Shown: positions 1-5,682, counted from the first letter of the stretch. The stretch is 5,682 nucleotides of DNA from Escherichia coli (GCF_003334785.1 NZ_QOWV01000042.1), one strand, 5' to 3'. Notes: generated by a model from the sequence alone, not told the origin. Made by a program: numbers and translations.

Positions 1-73
1 GGTCATCGCCGAAACTGACGGTTTTCAGACTCTTGATCTCATCGTCCAGATAGCGGTTCAGCTCGAGGTGTTC
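1..73. repeat. One unit (missing its first 2 nt) of the 75-bp coding tandem repeat; the array continues beyond the left edge.
   Basis: ggtcatcgccgaaactgacggttttcagactcttgatctcatcgtccagatagcggttcagctcgaggtgttc differs at 2 of 73 positions from 5163..5235. Bases 74..~130 look like a degenerate further unit. Confidence 0.9.
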
Positions 74-229
74 ATAATCTTCACTGACGCTAAAACTCTT
101 AACATTTTGTAGCATCTTATATTCGTACTTCAGCTTCTCTATTAACTCATTACTTAAATCATCAAGAGCATCATGGTCATATTTCGATGACATCAGATGC
201 GATTTTTTAATCATAAATCTGCCATCCAT
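1..229 (-). CDS. Acidic 25-aa tandem-repeat protein, paralogue A. The start codon is inside the window and the 3' end runs off the left edge (76 codons visible).
   Basis: AGGAG at 240..236, a 6-nt spacer, then ATG at 229..227. This lies 13 nt downstream of the stop (245..243) of the PIN-like ORF on the same strand. Hand translation: MDGRFMIKKSHLMSSKYDHDALDDLSNELIEKLKYEYKMLQNVKSFSVSEDYEHLELNRYLDDEIKSLKTVSFGDD..., with no stop before the window edge. Bases 1..73 are one unit of the 75-bp repeat seen at 5101..5640. The ORF is absent from the ORF track, presumably because it is truncated by the edge. Confidence 0.65.
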   Translation of the reverse strand, partial: MDGRFMIKKSHLMSSKYDHDALDDLSNELIEKLKYEYKMLQNVKSFSVSEDYEHLELNRYLDDEIKSLKTVSFGDD

Positions 230-242
230 ATGATACTCCTTC

Positions 243-1493
243 TTACTCTGTTATTGATGAAAGGATTGAGCTCATCTTCTGAATAGAAGATAACTTTCCT
301 TTCATTAGAAGTCTAATTTTAGCCATTATCTCAGGATCTGTCGCAGATTCTAGCTTTTTAGATAGACCAGCAATTTCTGCCTTTTCTCTTTTTATTCTGT
401 TTTCTAGGAGTGCTCGGTGTTCACTGTTGCTTGTGTTACTTCCAGCTCCATACCCATTCCCTGTTGAAATGTTGAGGTTTTCGGTGTTTATTTTAAGATC
501 GAATGCGTTGTTTATATTTAAGATTAGTTCTTTTGTGTTTATTACATCAAAAAATTGAACGCTTGAGTTATTTAGCATTTCCTCTCTTAATATAGCGTGA
601 ACGCCTTTGTTTTCTCTATTTTCTTTATCTCTACCAACTTTAAATATGAAGTCATCTTTTGCATCATTAGTGATTAGGAAAACGTTTTTCGCACCTGTTG
701 ATGCGGCATGCTCTAGAGTTTCTTTCCATATGTAGAAATCACCATAAGCTCTTTGATAAGTAATGCCGTCATAAGAGAATATATTGTCTGGCTTTCCTAC
801 CTTGTCTGCGTCACAGAATCCAGGGGGCGTTTTTAATTCATACCTTGATTTACATTCAGCATCTAATCCATTAATGTATTCTTGGTCCTTTTTTACGCCT
901 ATTTTTCCAGAGAATATGTTGTCAATCCATTCTCTATGTATGTCTTTTGTATTTAACTCATCAATTGATTCATTGAGTTTTCCATACATATCCTCTAGTC
1001 CTGAGTTTAATAAATCAATGGATTTTTTTATTAACTCAGATACTTGTCTGTTTAGCCCTTCGTAATGCCTTGCTTTGGAGTTGTTGCATTTTTCTAATAG
1101 TTTTGATGAATAAGATAATAAATCAACAACAGGAGATGTTGTTGTTGATATCAAGTGTTTCTGATCGTCGATAACCCCTAATCTTCTTCTCTGATACTCC
1201 AACGCAGTAAAATAAGGGAGATATATATTTTCTCTTATCTGTTCTATTGATTTCTTTATCGCAGATATTGTTTCCTGGTTGTTTCTATATAGGTCTAATA
1301 TGACATTGGTGTCAAAAACAAATAATGTATCATCTGCCCTGTATATATCAGGATTGTCCTTTATGTTGCCTGTATAAAATCCTTTAAACATATCCCTCAT
1401 CGACATAAAAAAGCCCCTATTATTCATTTCTGTTTTGTTCTTTTCGTCAGTTGCTGACTCTTGTGTCAACATCAAAATCAATCGATCATGCAA
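243..1493 (-). CDS. PIN-like domain protein (putative metal-dependent nuclease, DUF4935-like pattern) with a C-terminal helical tail.
   Basis: This is the longest ORF in the window (416 codons). Motifs in order are FVFDTNVILDLY (D61), YLPYFTALEYQRRR (E99), PPGFCDADK, YGDFYIWKETLEHA (D252) and VFLITNDAKDDF (D277/D280/D281). These are followed by a low-complexity NISTGNGYGAGSNTSNS stretch and a roughly 55-aa Lys/Glu/Leu-rich tail. The true start is probably internal: ATG at 1406 (M30) has AGGGG at 1418..1414 with a 7-nt spacer, and ATG at 1427 (M23) is an alternative. The 1493 start lies only 9 nt from the RNAII -35 box and upstream of a perfect TTGACA at 1469..1464. Confidence 0.8.
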   Translation of the reverse strand: MHDRLILMLTQESATDEKNKTEMNNRGFFMSMRDMFKGFYTGNIKDNPDIYRADDTLFVFDTNVILDLYRNNQETISAIKKSIEQIRENIYLPYFTALEYQRRRLGVIDDQKHLISTTTSPVVDLLSYSSKLLEKCNNSKARHYEGLNRQVSELIKKSIDLLNSGLEDMYGKLNESIDELNTKDIHREWIDNIFSGKIGVKKDQEYINGLDAECKSRYELKTPPGFCDADKVGKPDNIFSYDGITYQRAYGDFYIWKETLEHAASTGAKNVFLITNDAKDDFIFKVGRDKENRENKGVHAILREEMLNNSSVQFFDVINTKELILNINNAFDLKINTENLNISTGNGYGAGSNTSNSEHRALLENRIKREKAEIAGLSKKLESATDPEIMAKIRLLMKGKLSSIQKMSSILSSITE

Positions 1494-1538: not shown

Positions 1539-1646
1539 GTAAACGAAAAAACCACCCTGGCAGGTGGTCTTTTCGAAGGTTAGATAATCCTGGCAGATTC
1601 TCTAACCGTGGTAACAGTCTTGTGCGAGACATGTCACCAAATCCGT
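1539..1646 (-). ncRNA. RNAI: RNAI antisense copy-number regulator (about 108 nt).
   Basis: The minus strand starts ACGGATTTGGT (pMB1: ACAGTATTTGGT), 6 nt after the TACACT -10 box. It ends in an ACCACC/GGTGGT hairpin (1551..1568) followed by a T6 run on the minus strand, at the same position as the pMB1 RNAI terminator. It is fully complementary to the RNAII 5' end. Confidence 0.75.
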
Positions 1647-1652
1647 CCTTTC

Positions 1653-1682
1653 AGTGTAGCCTCACTCAGGCCACCACTTCAA
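1653..1682 (-). promoter_or_regulatory. RNAI promoter.
   Basis: On the minus strand: TTGAAG (1682..1677), a 17-nt spacer, then TACACT (1658..1653). These hexamers are identical to the pBR322 RNAI promoter as I recall it. Confidence 0.65.
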
Positions 1683-2299
1683 GAACTCTCGATACATCTC
1701 TCGCACATCCTGTTTACCAGTGGCCGTTGCCAATGGCGATTAGTCGTGTCTTTTCGGGTTGGACTCAAGACGATAGTTACCGGATAAGGCGCAGCGGTCG
1801 GACTGAACGGGGGGTTCGTGCATACAGTCCAGCTTGGAGCGAACTGCCTACCCGGAACTGAGTGTCAGGCGTGGAATGAGAAACCGCGGCCATAACAGCG
1901 GAATGACACCGGTAAACCGAAAGGCAGGAACAGGAGAGCGCACGAGGGAGCCACCAGGGGGAAACGCCTGGTATCTTTATAGTCCTGTCGGGTTTCGCCA
2001 CCTCTGACTTGAGCGTCGATTTTTGTGATGCTCGTCAGGGGGGCGGAGCCTATGGAAAAAGCGCCTGCGGCGCGGCCTTTTTCGGGGTTTCCGTTTTTGC
2101 GCACATGTTCTTTCCCGGGTTATCCCCGGATTCTGTGGATAACTGTGTTACCGTTTTTGTGTGAGTCAGTACCGCTCGCCGCAGCCGAACGACCGAGCGT
2201 AGCGAGTCAGTGAGCGAGGAAGCGGAAGAGCGCCGGAAGCTACATTTTCTCCTTACGCATCTGTGCGGCATTTCACACCCGGCATGGTGCACTTTTCAT

Positions 2300-2400
2300 A
2301 CCATCCGCACTGATGCTGCATGAGTAAGCCAGTATACACTCCGCTATCGCTACGTGACTGGGTCATGGCTGCGCCCCGACACCCGCAAGGTCAACGGCCT
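2300..2400 (-). other. oriT: bom/oriT (basis of mobility) with the ColE1-type nic site.
   Basis: The minus strand reads ...gcgatagcggagtgtatactgg|cttactcatg. The ColE1/pBR322 nic motif CTGG/CTTA falls at 2332..2325, with the nic between 2329 and 2328. The flanking gtgactgggtcatggctgcgccccgacaccc is near-identical to the pBR322 bom region. Confidence 0.75.
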
Positions 2401-2477
2401 GACGCGCCCTGACGGGCTTGTCTGCTCCCGGCATCCGCTCACAGGCAAGCTGTGACCGTCTCCGGGAGCTGTATGTG

Positions 2478-2669
2478 TCAGAGGTTTTCACCGTCATCAC
2501 CGAAACGCGCGAGGCAGCTGCGGTAAAGCTCATCAGCGTGGTCGTGAAGCGATTCACAGATGTCTGCCTGTTCATCCGCGTCCAGTTCGTTGAGTTTCTC
2601 CAGCAGCGTTAATGTCTGGCTTCTGATAAAGCGGGCCATGTTAAGGGCGGTTTTTTCCTGTTTAGTCAC
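2478..2669 (-). CDS. rop: Rop/Rom RNA one modulator (copy-number control).
   Basis: The 63-aa product MTKQEKTALNMARFIRSQTLTLLEKLNELDADEQADICESLHDHADELYRSCLARFGDDGENL matches the pMB1/ColE1 Rop sequence as I remember it. It has a GTG start at 2669..2667 and GGAGG at 2679..2675 with a 5-nt spacer. Confidence 0.95.
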   Translation of the reverse strand: MTKQEKTALNMARFIRSQTLTLLEKLNELDADEQADICESLHDHADELYRSCLARFGDDGENL

Positions 2670-2710
2670 TGATGCCTCCGTGTAAGGGGGGATTTCTGTT
2701 CATGGGGGTA

Positions 2711-3058
2711 ATGATACCGATGAAACGCGAGAGGATGCTCACCATACGGGTTACTGATGATGAACATGCCCGGTTACTGGAACGCTGTGAGGGTAAACAA
2801 CTGGCGGTATGGATGCGGCGGGTCTGCCTGGGTGAGCCGGTTGCCCGTTCCGGGAAGCTGCCGACACTGGCACCGCCGTTACTGCGCCAGCTGGCTGCCA
2901 TCGGGAATAACCTGAATCAGACAGCGAGGAAGGTGAACAGCGGGCAGTGGTCTTCCGGCGACCGGGTTCAGGTGGTGGCCGCACTGATGGCCATCGAGAG
3001 AGAGTTGCGCAGCTTACGGCAGGTCGTCAGGGGACAGGGAGCGCGGGATGATAGTTAA
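2711..3058 (+). CDS. mbeC: MbeC/MobC-type relaxosome accessory protein (ribbon-helix-helix).
   Basis: MLTIRVTDDEHARLLERCEGKQLAVWMRRVCLGEPVARSGKLPTLAPPLLRQLAAIGNNLNQTARKVNSG... is ColE1/pMB1 MbeC, whose 5' part survives in pBR322 next to rop. The ORF is open from 2672. In-frame ATGs occur at 2672, 2702, 2711, 2720 and 2735, so the start is uncertain. I chose 2711 because it gives about 115 aa. The stop TAA at 3056..3058 overlaps the mbeA start. Confidence 0.85.
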   Translation: MIPMKRERMLTIRVTDDEHARLLERCEGKQLAVWMRRVCLGEPVARSGKLPTLAPPLLRQLAAIGNNLNQTARKVNSGQWSSGDRVQVVAALMAIERELRSLRQVVRGQGARDDS

Positions 3059-3425
3059 GTTTCATGCCAGGGGGAAAGGTGGTGGCAGTGGTCCGGTTGA
3101 TTACCTTCTGGGAAGGGAGCGTAACCGGGAAGGTGCAACGGTACTGCAGGGTAACCCGGAAGAAGTCCGGGAACTCATCGATGCCACGCCATTTGCGAAG
3201 AAATATACGTCCGGTGTTCTGTCGTTCGCGGAGAAGGAACTGCCGCCGGGAGGACGTGAAAAAGTTATGGCGAGCTTTGAGCGTGTACTGATGCCCGGTC
3301 TTGAAAAAAATCAGTACAGCATCCTGTGGGTGGAGCACCAGGACAAGGGACGGCTTGAGCTGAATTTTGTCATTCCGAACATGGAGCTACAGAGCGGAAA
3401 ACGCCTCCAGCCGTACTACGACCGG

Positions 3426-3477
3426 GCAGACAGGCCGAGAATTGATGCCTGGCAGACAGGCCGAGAATTGATGCCTG
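3426..3477. repeat. Perfect 2 x 26-bp tandem duplication inside mbeA.
   Basis: gcagacaggccgagaattgatgcctg occurs at 3426..3451 and again at 3452..3477. It is followed by gcagac (3478..3483), so the unit is bounded by 6-bp GCAGAC microhomology. Confidence 0.95.
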
Positions 3478-3761
3478 GCAGACGCTGGTTAATCACCATT
3501 ACGGGCTGCATGACCCCAACGCCCCGGAGAACCGCCGGATACTGACTCTCTCTGATAACCTGCCGGAAACGAAACAGGCGCTTGCAGAGAGCGTCACACG
3601 CGGGATAGACGCTCTTTATCATGTCGGGGAGATAAAAGGCCGTCAGGATGTGATTCAGGCGCTCACAGAGGCAGGGCTTGAAGTGGTCAGGGTGACGCGA
3701 AGCAGTATCAGCATTGCAGACCCGAACGGTGGGAAGAATATCAGGCTGAAAGGAGCATTTT

Positions 3762-4292
3762 ATGAGCAATCTTTTACAGACGGGCGCGGAGTTCGAGAAA
3801 AAGCTGAAAGAGAGAGCCGAATCTACAGAGACAATGCTGAACGACGAGTTCAGGAAGCTCGAAGAATCTGTAAACAGGGAGCTGACCTCAAACGAATCTT
3901 TAATCAGGAACGCTATCAACGACCATACAGCAGCCCTGAAAGAACTTCTGGAGAGGTATCAGAAAACGACCGTCAGCACGATGGACACACACTGGCAAAC
4001 CGTGCTGAAAATGAGCGTGAAACGCTGGCTGTGGCTGATTATCGTCTCAGTACTGATGTTTGCCACGACCGGGAGTCTGCTGTGGTACCAGGGCATGAAG
4101 ATAAACGAGAATATGAATATTCTCCGCGAGCAGAAAGAGAGTCTGGAGAAGCTGAACGCGAAGACATGGGGCGTGCGTTATCACGAGGACAGCAACGGAC
4201 GTTTTCTGGTGTTGCCGAAGGGGATGAAAGCCGAAACGAACTGGACGAAGGACAACGGCAAACTGAACGCAGTGAGACTGGTGCAGGAGTGA
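3762..4292 (+). CDS. mbeB: MbeB mobilisation protein, nested out of frame within mbeA.
   Basis: A 176-aa ORF with AGGAG at 3751..3755 and a 6-nt spacer before the ATG. It has one hydrophobic segment (WLWLIIVSVLMFATTGSLLWY). Its position and size match ColE1 mbeB. Confidence 0.8.
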   Translation: MSNLLQTGAEFEKKLKERAESTETMLNDEFRKLEESVNRELTSNESLIRNAINDHTAALKELLERYQKTTVSTMDTHWQTVLKMSVKRWLWLIIVSVLMFATTGSLLWYQGMKINENMNILREQKESLEKLNAKTWGVRYHEDSNGRFLVLPKGMKAETNWTKDNGKLNAVRLVQE

Positions 4293-4298
4293 CAGAGC

Positions 4299-4532
4299 AT
4301 GACGGAGCTGGAAAGACATTTGCTGAACGCCTTAGAGCAACTGCAACAGGACTATATGCAGCGGCTGAACGAATGGGAGAGCGCCTTCGTGGAATTGCAG
4401 AAAATGTTTTCGCTTACGCAACGGGACAACGCGATGCTGAACGAGCGGGTCATGCAGTTGAGTCAGCAGGTGCAGCACTTGAGCGAGCGGACAGAACGCT
4501 TGAGCCAGTTATACAGCGAGAACAGGAGATAA
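4299..4532 (+). CDS. mbeD: MbeD mobilisation/entry-exclusion-associated protein, nested within mbeA.
   Basis: A 77-aa ORF starting 7 nt after mbeB, with AGGAG at 4285..4289. It is helical and heptad-rich (LLNALEQLQQDYMQRLNEWESAFVELQ). Its position matches ColE1 mbeD. Confidence 0.8.
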   Translation: MTELERHLLNALEQLQQDYMQRLNEWESAFVELQKMFSLTQRDNAMLNERVMQLSQQVQHLSERTERLSQLYSENRR

Positions 4533-4562
4533 GGGACGAACGGCTGATACAGGAGCGCGAAC

Positions 4563-4760
4563 ATGCGTTATCCCTGGAGCGTGAGCGCCAGCCGGAAATA
4601 CAGGAACGCACACTGGATGGCCCTTCGCTGGGATGGTAATCAGAGACAGGCTAAAATGTTGTCAGCGCGTTTCCGGTGCATTTTTTGGGATAATGGTTGG
4701 TTCGGGGGCACCGGGAACGCGCTTCAGTCAGACCTTGCTGAAAACACAGGAACGCGTTAA
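4563..4760 (+). CDS. Small Trp/Arg-rich ORF overlapping the mbeA 3' end (possible mbeE-like ORF; not recognised).
   Basis: AGGAG at 4551..4555 with a 7-nt spacer before ATG 4563 is a good ribosome-binding site. The 65-aa product has no motif I recognise. ColE1 is described as having a fifth small mbe ORF, but I cannot verify correspondence. Confidence 0.25.
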   Translation: MRYPWSVSASRKYRNAHWMALRWDGNQRQAKMLSARFRCIFWDNGWFGGTGNALQSDLAENTGTR

Positions 4761-4849
4761 AACGCATACGGGCGCGATTCTGGTGTATCTTTTGTTGCTG
4801 TGTTTTGCCGTTATTGCCAGATCGCGCTCATTCCCCTGAATTTCTGTTT

Positions 4850-5086
4850 TTCCGCTCCGGTTCCGTCTTCTGCCTTTCCGAAAGTATGAAAAAAATCCGT
4901 TTCAGCAGTCTCTGGCTGGAAATTCCTGCGTGATTCACATGGCTGCATAGCTATGCATGTGGTTAAAATTTACCGGGTGCGATCGCGGCAGTTTTTCGGG
5001 TGGTTTGTTGCCATTTTTACCTGTCTGCTGCCGTGATCGCACCGAACGCGTTTCAGTGGTGCGTACAATGGGATGTTATGGTAAAT
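4850..5086 (+). other. cer: cer-type multimer resolution site (accessory sequences plus XerC/XerD core).
   Basis: The core at 5058..5086 is GGTGCGTACAA-tgggatg-TTATGGTAAAT. Both 11-bp arms are identical to ColE1 cer as I recall it. A 14-bp perfect palindrome TGCATAGCTATGCA (4944..4957) lies about 100 bp upstream, where the cer ArgR box sits. The left boundary is approximate. Confidence 0.75.
4975..5060 (+). ncRNA. rcd: Possible Rcd-like checkpoint RNA encoded inside cer.
   Basis: A -10-like TAAAAT lies at 4964..4969. A long stem pairs gcgatcgcggcag (4979..4991) with ctgccgtgatcgc (5028..5040), 12 Watson-Crick pairs plus one G-U. The segment resembles the ColE1 cer/Rcd region from memory. Direction and ends are not established from this sequence. 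Confidence 0.3.
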
Positions 5087-5100
5087 GGCTCTCGCTAGTT

Positions 5101-5640
5101 TCATTTAATTTTTAAATTACGAAGCTCATTATCCAGATAGCGATTCAGCTCGAGGAGCTCGTGGTCATCGCCGAAACTGACGGTTTTCAGGCTCTTGATC
5201 TCATCGTCCAGATAGCGGTTCAGCTCGAGGAGTTCGTGGTCATCGCCGAAACTGACGGTTTTCAGACTCATGATCTCATCGTCCAGATAGCGGTTCAGTT
5301 CCCGGAGTTCGTGGTCATTGCCGAAACTGACGGTTTTCAGGCTCTTGATCTCATCGTCCAGATAGCGGTTCAGTTTCCGGAGCTCGTGGTCATCGCCGAA
5401 ACTGACGGTTTTCAGACTCATGATCTCATCGTCCAGATAGCGGTTCAGCTCGAGGAGCTCGTGGTCATCGCCGAAACTGACGGTTTTCAGGCTCATGATC
5501 TCATCGTCCAGATAGCGGTTCAGTTTCCGGAGCTCGAGGTCATCGCCGAAATTGACGGTTTTCAGACTCATGATCTCATCGTCCAGATAGCGGTTCAGAT
5601 AGAGGAGATCATAGTCATCGCAGACGCTAACAGTATTAAC
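5101..5640. repeat. 75-bp tandem repeat array: six near-perfect units at 5161, 5236, 5311, 5386, 5461 and 5536, plus degenerate flanking units.
   Basis: The period was verified by coordinates: gtggtcatcgcc recurs at 5161, 5236, 5386 and 5461, with the one-mismatch variant gtggtcattgcc at 5311. Units differ at only a few positions each. The variants are combinations of cagactcatgatc versus caggctcttgatc, and cagctcgaggag versus cagtt(t/c)ccggag. Confidence 0.95.
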
Positions 5641-5652
5641 AATATTTATCAA
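5101..5652 (-). CDS. Acidic 25-aa tandem-repeat protein, paralogue B (repeat domain and C-terminus). The homologous N-terminal region continues upstream past an in-frame TAG and off the right edge.
   Basis: The ORF contains seven repeat units of consensus LNRYLDDEI(M/K)SLKTVSFGDDHEL(LE/RK) and ends ...LNRYLDNELRNLKIK, with TGA at 5103..5101. The track start at 5652 is a TTG directly after TAG 5655..5653. No SD precedes it, so it is probably not a real start. It may be a disrupted gene, so pseudogene status is possible. Confidence 0.55.
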   Translation of the reverse strand: MINIVNTVSVCDDYDLLYLNRYLDDEIMSLKTVNFGDDLELRKLNRYLDDEIMSLKTVSFGDDHELLELNRYLDDEIMSLKTVSFGDDHELRKLNRYLDDEIKSLKTVSFGNDHELRELNRYLDDEIMSLKTVSFGDDHELLELNRYLDDEIKSLKTVSFGDDHELLELNRYLDNELRNLKIK

Positions 5653-5682
5653 CTAGTAATCGTACATCATCAGCTCAATTAA

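What the first reader, a model, noticed from the sequence alone, without database searches (positions are those of the whole stretch)
5101..5682. Near-identical 75-bp coding tandem repeats encoding an acidic 25-aa module (possible solenoid or DNA mimic)
Seen in sequence: at least six 75-bp units differ by only a few nt each, and the variation is a mosaic of two alternative sub-blocks rather than random drift. This suggests recent expansion, gene conversion or recombination between units and between the two arrays; unit 1..73 is 71/73 identical to 5163..5235. Each 25-aa unit (LNRYLDDEIMSLKTVSFGDDHELLE) has 6-7 Asp/Glu against 2-4 Lys/Arg, a net charge of about -2 to -5 per unit by hand count. 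Inference: rotated as LKTVSFGDDHELLELNRYLDDEIMS, the unit shows L-x-x-V-x-F-x-x-D followed by an amphipathic helix. This is a weak resemblance to leucine-rich-repeat-like alpha/beta solenoids. Alternatively, the regular acidic surface could mimic nucleic acid, as ArdA and Ocr do. Copy number is likely unstable and could tune function.
Basis: partly seen in the sequence, partly recalled or inferred. Interest (0 to 1): 0.65.

Follow-up and report, generated by a model that had tools for sequence, protein, structure and literature searches.

The report
Acidic repeat partner of a plasmid nuclease
The 75-bp repeats are real and encode most of a small, very acidic tandem-repeat protein that always sits directly behind a PIN-type nuclease gene on small enterobacterial plasmids; this conserved two-gene module has no known function and is probably a nuclease plus its regulator.

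Summary
Window 5149-5598 carries six 75-bp units that differ from their consensus by 1-5 nt, followed by a 45-nt partial unit and a stop codon. The unit at 1-73 belongs to the same array.

There is one gene, not two arrays. The window is a ColE1-type plasmid contig broken inside the array. In the closed E. coli ECOR10 plasmid (99.9% identical) the minus-strand gene encodes 346 aa: a 56-aa head, 11 units of 25 aa and a short basic tail.

The gene starts 13 nt after a VapC-like PIN_8 nuclease gene. This gene pair is conserved across plasmid backbones, down to 56% nuclease identity. The partner's units change in sequence and length (23-29 aa) across relatives, but they stay acidic and repeated, and only the minus-strand frame stays open. 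It is therefore a protein, not an RNA or an antisense ORF.

Structure prediction gives one helix plus a loop per unit at low confidence. It shows no beta strands and no LRR-like fold. ArdA/Ocr membership is not met.

Unit order is conserved among isolates, with 11 units the usual number, so the array is not hypervariable.

Best reading, by inference: a multivalent acidic regulator of the nuclease in a toxin-antitoxin-like or anti-phage module.

The parts
5149..5598 (-). Six complete 75-bp units (25 aa each). They correspond to units 6-11 (types F G H I G J) of the canonical 11-unit array.
   Evidence: The units differ from the consensus by 1-5 nt and have the same order as in ECOR10 plasmid L001 and in L110, L115-L117.
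5101..5148 (-). Terminal partial unit LNRYLDNELRNLKIK (a basic tail) plus the TAA stop at 5103-5101. This is the 3' end of the partner gene.
   Evidence: The same C-terminus is present in every complete relative.
1..61 (-). First repeat unit (type A) of the same gene, cut by the contig end. It holds 20 of 25 codons.
   Evidence: Bases 1-73 are 71/73 identical to 5163-5235.
62..229 (-). Non-repeat N-terminal 56 codons of the partner gene, with the ATG at 229-227. Sequence: MDGRFMIKKSHLMSSKYDHDALDDLSNELIEKLKYEYKMLQNVKSFSVSEDYEHLE.
   Evidence: An N-terminal motif M-x-x-x-[SF]-F-h-x-x-K is shared by all partner types.
230..242 (-). 13-nt spacer between the nuclease stop and the partner start. It contains the Shine-Dalgarno sequence AAGGAG (241-236), 6 nt before the ATG.
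   Evidence: Read from the sequence. The same 12-13 nt spacing occurs in all relatives.
243..1493 (-). PIN_8 (VapC-like PIN) nuclease gene. The ORF gives 416 aa. The likely true start is M30 (window 1406), giving 387 aa.
5599..5682 (-). Foreign tail at the contig end. It is a diverged homologue of N-terminal codons 29-56 (LIELMMYDY*LINIVNTVSVCDDYDLLY) with an in-frame TAG. It is not part of the canonical gene.
   Evidence: GC 0.33, like the gene's N-terminal part. It was not found in 103 loci, in the metagenome scan or in PLSDB.

Best explanation
Shown: the repeats are the body of one minus-strand gene. It is complete only in closed relatives, where it is 346 aa: a 56-aa head, 11 near-identical 25-aa acidic units and a short basic tail. 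The gene is translationally coupled, 13 nt downstream, to a VapC-like PIN_8 nuclease gene. The pair is a cargo cassette on small mobilizable plasmids of Enterobacterales.

Inferred mechanism: the repeat protein is the regulatory subunit of the nuclease. Each unit is one helix preceded by an acidic S-F-G-D-D cap. The protein behaves as a flexible, multivalent acidic string that folds on binding, not as a rigid solenoid. It would bind PIN_8, either through the nuclease's basic C-terminal helical hairpin or through its nucleic-acid-binding surface, and keep it inactive. One partner molecule could hold several nuclease molecules. Loss or titration of the partner, for example after phage-induced shut-off of host expression or after loss of the plasmid, would free the nuclease to cut RNA or DNA. 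That would make the pair a toxin-first toxin-antitoxin / abortive-infection type module with a repeat-built protein antitoxin.
For: Gene identity:
- The window is 99.9% identical to closed plasmid NZ_LT985292.1. The full 346-aa ORF is there and in at least 8 other assemblies.

Coupling:
- A Shine-Dalgarno sequence plus ATG lie 13 nt after the nuclease stop.
- The pair is conserved on ColE1-type backbones and on Rep3-type backbones, with nuclease identity from 100% down to 56%.

The constraint is on the protein:
- Only the frame on the nuclease's strand stays open in all types.
- Unit length changes in whole codons: 23-29 aa in L106, 26 aa in L023.
- The core motif F-x-D-D...L-x-x-L-x-R-x-L-D-D-E is kept.
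- HMMER links the window type to the L106 type at E 8e-7.

Charge:
- Partner pI is 4.5-4.7, with net charge -32 to -39 in the long forms.
- The last 74-76 residues of the nuclease carry net +3 to +9 in all plasmid-clade homologues; in the window this region has pI 9.7 and net +4. The part from residue 356 is predicted as a confident helical hairpin, 356-415.

Evolution:
- Partner dN/dS is 0.26-1.2, against 0.10-0.15 for the nuclease in the same plasmid pairs. This is typical of an interaction or conflict surface.

Structure:
- Prediction is helix plus loop per unit at low confidence, which fits folding on binding.

Family theme:
- 17 of 112 stand-alone PIN_8 proteins carry their own C-terminal tandem repeats of 17-18 aa, at the position where the plasmid clade has its hairpin. 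Short repeats therefore go with this nuclease family both in cis and in trans.

Context:
- The module sits in plasmid cargo slots that otherwise hold colicins, restriction-modification and Abi genes.
- It lies beside a methyltransferase (L006) or a reverse transcriptase (L009) in some contigs.
- Some PIN_8 genes neighbour known defence genes.
Against: - There is no experiment, and no interaction prediction could be run.
- Most PIN_8 proteins are stand-alone (also PMC5499597, read). The nuclease therefore need not be toxic and need not require an antitoxin.
- The partner lacks any recognisable DNA-binding domain, and it lies downstream rather than upstream as in classical VapBC.
- Neither protein matches PADLOC.
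- ColE1 plasmids are high-copy and rarely need addiction modules.
- Homology between the cis repeats of stand-alone PIN_8 proteins and the partner units was tested and not found.
- The hydrophobic moment of the window helix is only modest: 0.34, with 13% of shuffles as high.
Confidence: 0.4

Rival explanations
1. Sensor or adaptor rather than inhibitor. The repeat protein would be the recognition subunit of a PIN_8 defence system. Its repeated acidic helices would bind, or act as a decoy for, a phage or plasmid protein. That binding would activate or recruit the nuclease.
For: - The partner evolves faster than the nuclease (dN/dS 0.26-1.2 vs 0.10-0.15).
- Whole repeat types are replaced between close nuclease relatives.
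- Stand-alone PIN_8 proteins exist without any inhibitor and often carry variable C-terminal repeats, like the variable sensor regions of other defence proteins.
- One distant PIN_8 is paired with a P-loop ATPase next to a type III restriction system.
- A defence system that pairs a PIN domain with an ATPase (HEC-03) has been described (10.1101/2024.01.29.577857).
Against: No phage data exist. There are no PADLOC hits. Near-identical units give one specificity repeated 11 times rather than a diverse recognition surface. Unit order is conserved across isolates, so there is no sign of rapid diversification within this type.
Confidence: 0.25
2. Free-standing nucleic-acid mimic (ArdA/Ocr-like anti-restriction or anti-defence protein) that helps the plasmid establish itself, functionally independent of the nuclease.
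For: The protein has high, regularly spaced negative charge: 24% Asp+Glu, pI 4.7. It is carried on a mobilizable plasmid.
Against: There is no match to ArdA, Ocr or any anti-restriction family at E <= 1. The gene is never found apart from a PIN_8 gene and is translationally coupled to it. No confident rigid fold is predicted that could copy B-DNA geometry.
Confidence: 0.06
3. Rigid repeat fold: an LRR-like alpha/beta solenoid or an alpha-solenoid of stacked helices that forms a binding scaffold.
For: The period is regular at 25 aa. phmmer matches de novo designed helical repeat proteins with the same helix-plus-loop period: 7rdr at E 7e-8 and 8cwy at E 6e-4, the latter aligned over 287 columns without gaps.
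Against: AlphaFold2 gives pLDDT 52 and pTM 0.18, and no strands. No LRR family passes. In the L106 relative, unit length varies from 23 to 29 aa with Pro/Gly-rich linkers, which is hard to fit to a regular solenoid. The matches to designed proteins reflect shared composition and an N-cap motif (GD[DE]E...), not ancestry.
Confidence: 0.1
4. RNA-level function: the tandem array would act as a repeat RNA antitoxin processed by the nuclease, as in type III toxin-antitoxin systems (ToxIN), and the ORF would be incidental.
For: There is a tandem nucleotide array next to an endonuclease gene on a plasmid. The analogy to ToxI repeats is from my own knowledge.
Against: - The array lies downstream of the nuclease gene, not upstream.
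- Three units fold less stably than shuffled sequence (z = +2.2; 198 of 200 shuffles fold at least as well).
- Rfam finds nothing there.
- The reading frame, start codon and Shine-Dalgarno sequence are conserved.
- Relatives keep the amino-acid motif while DNA and unit length diverge in whole codons.
Confidence: 0.03

Closest known systems
VapBC-type (PIN-domain) type II toxin-antitoxin systems
   Same: It has a VapC-like PIN nuclease with conserved acidic active-site residues. The nuclease is paired in one operon with a small acidic protein. The module is plasmid-borne.
   Different: The partner lies downstream, has no DNA-binding domain and no similarity to any VapB. It is built from 2-12 tandem units. 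The nuclease is about 390 aa, with a long helical insert and a C-terminal hairpin, against about 130 aa for VapC. Most PIN_8 relatives have no partner at all.
RnlAB / LsoAB (toxin-first RNase toxin-antitoxin pairs; LsoAB is on a small E. coli plasmid and acts against phage). Comparison from my own knowledge.
   Same: The nuclease gene comes first and the small partner gene immediately follows. It is cargo of a small enterobacterial plasmid. Both plausibly work by abortive infection.
   Different: There is no sequence or domain relation: RnlA/LsoA are HEPN-type, not PIN. Their antitoxins are not repeat proteins. Nothing has been tested for this module.
ToxIN-type type III toxin-antitoxin systems (tandem-repeat antitoxin). 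Comparison from my own knowledge.
   Same: A tandem array of near-identical units sits adjacent to an endonuclease gene on plasmids. The idea of one unit per toxin molecule is the same.
   Different: Here the repeats are translated and the constraint is on the protein. They lie downstream, and the RNA shows no excess structure.
DNA-mimic proteins Ocr and ArdA
   Same: Both are very acidic, carried on mobile elements and have periodic negative charge.
   Different: There is no sequence match. No rigid fold is predicted. The gene is obligately linked to a nuclease gene rather than free-standing.
Stand-alone PIN_8 proteins with C-terminal tandem repeats (e.g. P0053 with 7 x SIDNDRLREALERTNNIP, P0048 with 8 x GNEQLQKALKSYQDPFA)
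   Same: They belong to the same nuclease family (25-33% identity). They combine it with short tandem repeats that have an S-[FI]-D-[ND]-[DE] cap, and they end in a charged tail.
   Different: Their repeats are fused in cis, are 17-18 aa long rather than 25, and are not detectably homologous to the partner units.
De novo designed helical repeat proteins (PDB 7rdr, 8cwy, 5cwb)
   Same: They have the same helix-plus-capped-loop period and the same Leu/Glu/Asp/Lys-rich amphipathic pattern. phmmer E-values are 7e-8 to 6e-3.
   Different: The resemblance is convergent and compositional only. No confident matching fold was predicted for the natural protein.

Membership tests
Leucine-rich repeat (LRR) solenoids | LxxLxLxxN/C motif recognised by LRR profiles | tested here: not met
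   Pfam scan at E <= 1. The only LRR hit is PF23622 at E 0.041, 13.7 bits against a cutoff of 26.9, with no significant stretch.
Leucine-rich repeat (LRR) solenoids | One beta strand per unit forming a parallel sheet | tested here: not met
   AlphaFold2 gives helix 19 + loop 6 per unit, no strands, pLDDT 52. The run used a single sequence, so this is not decisive.
ArdA / Ocr DNA mimics | Sequence membership in the ArdA or Ocr families | tested here: not met
   No such family appears among Pfam, NCBIfam or PHROGs hits.
ArdA / Ocr DNA mimics | High negative surface charge | tested here: met
   pI 4.73, 84 Asp+Glu against 52 Lys+Arg in 346 aa.
ArdA / Ocr DNA mimics | Rigid fold that places carboxylates like B-DNA phosphates; inhibition of type I restriction enzymes | not testable with these tools
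   The model has low confidence. This needs a solved structure and an enzyme assay.
Type II toxin-antitoxin, VapBC class | PIN-fold toxin with conserved acidic catalytic residues | tested here: met
Type II toxin-antitoxin, VapBC class | Adjacent co-transcribed small protein partner | tested here: met
   13-nt spacer with a Shine-Dalgarno sequence. The pair is conserved in all plasmid-clade relatives.
Type II toxin-antitoxin, VapBC class | Antitoxin upstream, with an N-terminal DNA-binding domain (AbrB, RHH, Phd or HTH) | tested here: not met
   The partner is downstream. No DNA-binding family was detected.
Type II toxin-antitoxin, VapBC class | Toxicity of the nuclease and its neutralisation by the partner | not testable with these tools
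   Needs expression assays.
Type III toxin-antitoxin (ToxIN-like) | Non-coding tandem repeats upstream of the toxin gene that give a structured RNA | tested here: not met
   The array is downstream and coding. RNA fold z = +2.2. There is no Rfam hit.
Known anti-phage defence systems (PADLOC-DB 2.0) | A match of either protein to a system component model | tested here: not met
   PIN_8 gave 0 families. The partner gave only sub-threshold hits inflated by the repeats.
PIN_8-associated acidic repeat protein (the family proposed here) | Gene 12-13 nt downstream of a plasmid-clade PIN_8 gene; N-terminal M-x-x-x-[SF]-F-h-x-x-K; at least 1.6 acidic units with F-x-D-D ... L-D-D-E core; short basic tail | tested here: met
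   The window carries the head (62-229), unit 1 (1-61), units 6-11 and the tail (5104-5598).

The most novel reading that the evidence does not exclude
PIN_8 nucleases would form a previously unrecognised class of conflict systems gated by tandem arrays of short acidic helical motifs. In chromosomal members the array is fused in cis. On enterobacterial plasmids it is split off as a separate gene. The array would act as a multivalent pseudo-substrate or decoy: a protein counterpart of the repeat RNA antitoxins of type III systems. The number of units would set how many nuclease molecules are held, or the trigger threshold.
Probability: 0.2. Interest if true: 0.8.

Novelty: new variant of a known kind. 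Interest (0 to 1): 0.55.

Why it matters
The PIN_8 family is listed as 'function unknown' in the only survey that mentions it (PMC5499597). I found no paper on the repeat partner.

The module is common. The nuclease protein is indexed in 155 + 33 sample blocks. Named cluster members come from E. coli, Klebsiella, Citrobacter, Salmonella and Enterobacter, including reference strain ECOR10.

If the partner is a repeat-built protein antitoxin or sensor, it would add a new regulatory principle to nuclease-based toxin-antitoxin and defence systems. It would also give a simple, tunable experimental handle, because unit number can be varied.

Practically, the array breaks short-read plasmid assemblies. 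This window, two FDAARGOS strain assemblies and several metagenome contigs all end inside it. It also produces truncated or spurious ORF calls.

Tried and rejected
- Protein word-index search with 320 aa of the repeat protein found nothing. The 76-aa head found only four proteins of 96-99 aa.
- An exhaustive profile search of 1.84 billion representatives found only the family itself and one fragment of the L106 type. There is therefore no distant annotated relative.
- Pfam, NCBIfam, PADLOC and PHROGs hits to the repeat protein (DUF7671, phage_HTJ, phrog_30419 and others) have no individually significant stretch. They are sums over repeats, and I rejected them.
The 6.6-unit model has low confidence, so I ran no fold search on it.
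- Antisense plus-strand ORF: rejected as not conserved.
- RNA antitoxin: rejected.
- Homology between partner units and the cis repeats of stand-alone PIN_8 proteins was tested with phmmer against shuffled decoys and with hhalign. It is not significant: only an 8-column cap motif, P 0.24.
- The origin of the 84-nt tail was sought in all loci, JGI metagenomes and PLSDB without success. An exact look-up of the 183-aa ORF also failed.
- Promoter and terminator scans were uninformative.
- A defence-island test on 140 neighbours of distant PIN_8 genes gave a few hits (HEC-06, bSEFIR, SspE/Orf5, type IV restriction enzyme). It had no background control, so I count it as weak evidence only.

Full report
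**1. The observation**

Tandem Repeats Finder reports one array at 5125-5621: period 75, 6.6 copies, 91% matches, score 791.

Cut in coding register on the minus strand, there are six complete units at 5598-5149. They differ from their consensus by 3, 4, 1, 4, 4 and 5 nt. A 45-nt partial unit and a TAA stop follow.

Bases 1-73 match 5163-5235 at 71 of 73 positions.

The variable sites fall into a few alternative sub-blocks: ATGAGT / AAGAGC / ATGAGC, and CGGGAA / CGGAAA / CTCGAG. The 'mosaic' description is therefore fair.

Net charge of the six units is -2 to -5.

**2. One gene, cut by the contig ends**

The window is a ColE1-type mobilizable plasmid. It carries RNAI at 1543-1645, and rop, mobC, mbeB and mbeD.

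Over positions 1543-5621 it is 99.9% identical to the closed 5912-bp plasmid RCS83_pIII of E. coli ECOR10.

In that plasmid the minus strand carries one ORF of 346 aa: a 56-aa head, 11 units of 25 aa and the tail LNRYLDNELRNLKIK. RefSeq annotates it from a later start codon as a 308-aa hypothetical protein.

In the window the head and the first unit lie at 229-1 and run off the contig. Units 6-11 and the tail lie at 5598-5104.

Without its last 84 nt the window is 314 nt shorter than the reference. That equals the rest of unit 1 plus units 2-5.

Other public records are broken in the same array: two linear FDAARGOS records and several metagenome contigs.

**3. The odd tail**

Positions 5599-5682 are not a repeat unit. 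On the minus strand they read LIELMMYDY*LINIVNTVSVCDDYDLLY.

This is colinear with codons 29-56 of the real gene. 52 of the last 75 nt are identical, and the differences fall 10/7/16 by codon position. GC is 0.33, like the head of the gene and unlike the array (0.505).

The tail is absent from every fetched locus, from the JGI metagenome scan and from PLSDB.

I could not decide between two explanations: a chimeric join with a diverged allele, or a real disrupted allele. The 183-aa ORF listed at 5101-5652 is a product of this junction.

**4. Which strand, and is it protein or RNA?**

The gene starts at ATG 229, 13 nt after the stop of the upstream gene, with AAGGAG 6 nt before the ATG.

In four diverged relatives only this frame is open throughout:
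- The antisense ORF is open in the window type.
- It is open in a different frame in L106.
- It is closed, with 4-36 stops per frame, in L018 and L023.

Unit length differs by whole codons (23-29 aa) while an amino-acid core is kept.

Three units folded as RNA are less stable than shuffled sequence (z = +2.2), and Rfam finds nothing there.

The product is a protein translated from the minus strand.

**5. The neighbour**

The upstream gene (1493-243) encodes a PIN_8 protein (PF18476, E 1.4e-41).
- With 27 homologues, AlphaFold2 gives pLDDT 77.
- D61, E99, D252 and D281 are invariant.
- The model adds a long helical hairpin insert (94-182) and a confident C-terminal hairpin (356-415).
- The C-terminal ~75 residues that contain this hairpin are basic: pI 9.7 in the window, and net +3 to +9 across the plasmid clade.
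- Residues 1-29 are low-confidence and missing in homologues, so the real start is probably M30.
- The only survey that mentions PIN_8 lists its function as unknown (PMC5499597).

**6. The pair is conserved, and the repeats are ancestral to the clade**

Every plasmid-clade PIN_8 gene I could inspect (56-100% identity) is followed 12-13 nt later by an acidic repeat gene. The one exception is L017, where the contig ends about 150 nt past the nuclease gene and only the start of a similar ORF is visible. The backbones include ColE1-type plasmids and Rep3-type plasmids.

| Partner type | Nuclease identity (approx.) | Partner features |
|---|---|---|
| Window type | 100% | Near-identical 25-aa units |
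| P0018/P0019 | not noted | 99 aa, 1.6 units |
| L106 | 74% | About ten diverged units of 23-29 aa, LSRSLDDEIRSLQLSLKHSF.DDD |
| L022/L023 | 69% | 26-aa units |
| L018/L019 | 56% | 25-aa units, HGFDDIHKLSLSLIDESFNNERLNV |

All types share three features: an N-terminal M-x-x-x-[SF]-F-h-x-x-K motif, pI 4.5-5.2 (4.5-4.7 in the multi-unit forms) and a short basic tail.

HMMER links the window type to the L106 type at E 8e-7. It finds nothing else among 1.84 billion representatives.

The partner evolves faster than the nuclease: dN/dS 0.26-1.2 against 0.10-0.15, on small counts.

**7. Copy number**

I coded each distinct unit by a letter.
- Eight independent complete assemblies read A B C D/M E F G H I G J plus the partial unit, with a few single-unit substitutions.
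- One assembly has 12 units (ABBC...).
- Versions with 10, 9, 6, 2 and 1 units are in-register deletions, and they come from short-read assemblies that can collapse repeats.

Unit identity is therefore position-specific and conserved across isolates. The array is not hypervariable, although changes of one unit do occur.

**8. Fold**

AlphaFold2 on the window's 6.6 units, run as a single sequence, gives a 19-residue helix and a 6-residue loop per unit. Mean pLDDT is 52 and pTM is 0.18, and there are no strands.

No LRR, ArdA or Ocr family matches.

phmmer against PDB sequences finds only de novo designed helical repeat proteins with the same helix-plus-capped-loop period (7rdr at E 7e-8, 8cwy at E 6e-4). 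I read this as convergent resemblance.

The variable, Pro/Gly-containing linkers in L106 argue for a flexible string of helices rather than a rigid solenoid.

The hydrophobic moment is modest for the window helix (0.34) and clearer for L106 (0.54).

**9. The wider family**

Distant PIN_8 genes (25-35% identity; 80 genome loci and 61 plasmid records) are mostly stand-alone and have no repeat partner.

However, 17 of 112 carry their own C-terminal tandem repeats of 17-18 aa in 4-8 copies, followed by an acidic tail. These lie where the plasmid clade has its basic hairpin.

phmmer with shuffled decoys and hhalign show no significant similarity to the partner units beyond an S-[FI]-D-[ND]-[DE] cap. 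This is a shared architecture, not demonstrated homology.

One distant PIN_8 is paired with a P-loop ATPase beside a type III restriction system. A few neighbours of other PIN_8 genes match defence families (no control).

**10. Mechanism**

Shown:
- A conserved, translationally coupled nuclease-plus-acidic-repeat-protein cassette on small plasmids.
- The constraint is at the protein level.
- The partner is acidic, whereas the C-terminal ~75 residues of the nuclease, which include its helical hairpin, are basic.

Inferred:
- The repeat protein binds and regulates the nuclease. Most likely it holds several copies inactive until it is lost or titrated, giving toxin-antitoxin or abortive-infection logic.

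The main rival is a sensor/adaptor role. Free-standing DNA mimicry, a rigid solenoid and an RNA antitoxin are less likely, for the reasons given above.

**11. Novelty**

I found no paper, curated family or defence model that covers the partner or the pair.

I rate it a new variant of a known kind: a PIN nuclease operon with an unprecedented repeat-built partner. Interest is moderate.

Noticed in passing
window 5599-5682: 84-nt contig-end tail. It is a diverged copy of the partner gene's N-terminal codons 29-56 (52 of the last 75 nt identical, GC 0.33) with an in-frame TAG, joined directly to unit 6. It was found nowhere else. It is either a chimeric assembly or a real disrupted allele.
   Followed up: partly
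window 3425-3483: A perfect 26-bp tandem duplication (2.3 copies, 100% matches) lies inside the mbeA relaxase gene. It leaves a 165-aa product, whereas relatives encode 499-541 aa. The ECOR10 plasmid's relaxase annotation is likewise a 165-aa product, so the plasmid may be mobilisation-defective.
   Followed up: partly
window 5104-5598 versus 62-229 and 243-1493: The array has GC 0.505 (GC3 0.66 over the full-length partner gene in L001). The same gene's head and the nuclease gene have GC 0.34 (GC3 0.31 for the nuclease gene in L001). The shift is also present in the L106 and L023 repeat types but not in L018. Possible causes are codon optimisation or GC-biased conversion among repeats.
   Followed up: partly
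P0048, P0053, P0054, P0052, P0058, P0051, P0064, P0043; loci L051, L057, L035: Stand-alone PIN_8 proteins carry C-terminal tandem repeats of 17-18 aa (4-8 copies, e.g. SIDNDRLREALERTNNIP) followed by an acidic tail. This applies to 17 of 112 sampled. The repeats are not detectably homologous to the plasmid partner units.
   Followed up: yes
L020 4001-6534 (and L021): A 33%-identical PIN_8 gene is followed by a 421-aa protein with a Walker A motif (GSSKQGKT). It sits next to a type III restriction-modification pair (methyltransferase + ResIII helicase). This suggests a different PIN_8 two-gene system in a defence context.
   Followed up: no
window 243-1493: The listed 416-aa ORF starts at a TTG. 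Homologues and the structure model indicate the real start is M30 (window 1406, 387 aa). Public gene calls use 416, 409 and 387 aa.
   Followed up: partly
window 5161-5682 (+): A long antisense ORF (173 aa or more, VVIAETDGFQ...) runs through the array. It exists because one stop-free unit is repeated, and it is not conserved in relatives.
   Followed up: yes
L009 485-1832; L006 413-3351: In other plasmid contigs the same PIN_8 + repeat cassette sits beside a reverse-transcriptase + cold-shock-domain pair (retron/DRT-like), or beside a large N6/N4 methyltransferase gene. The cassette therefore shares cargo slots with defence-type genes.
   Followed up: no
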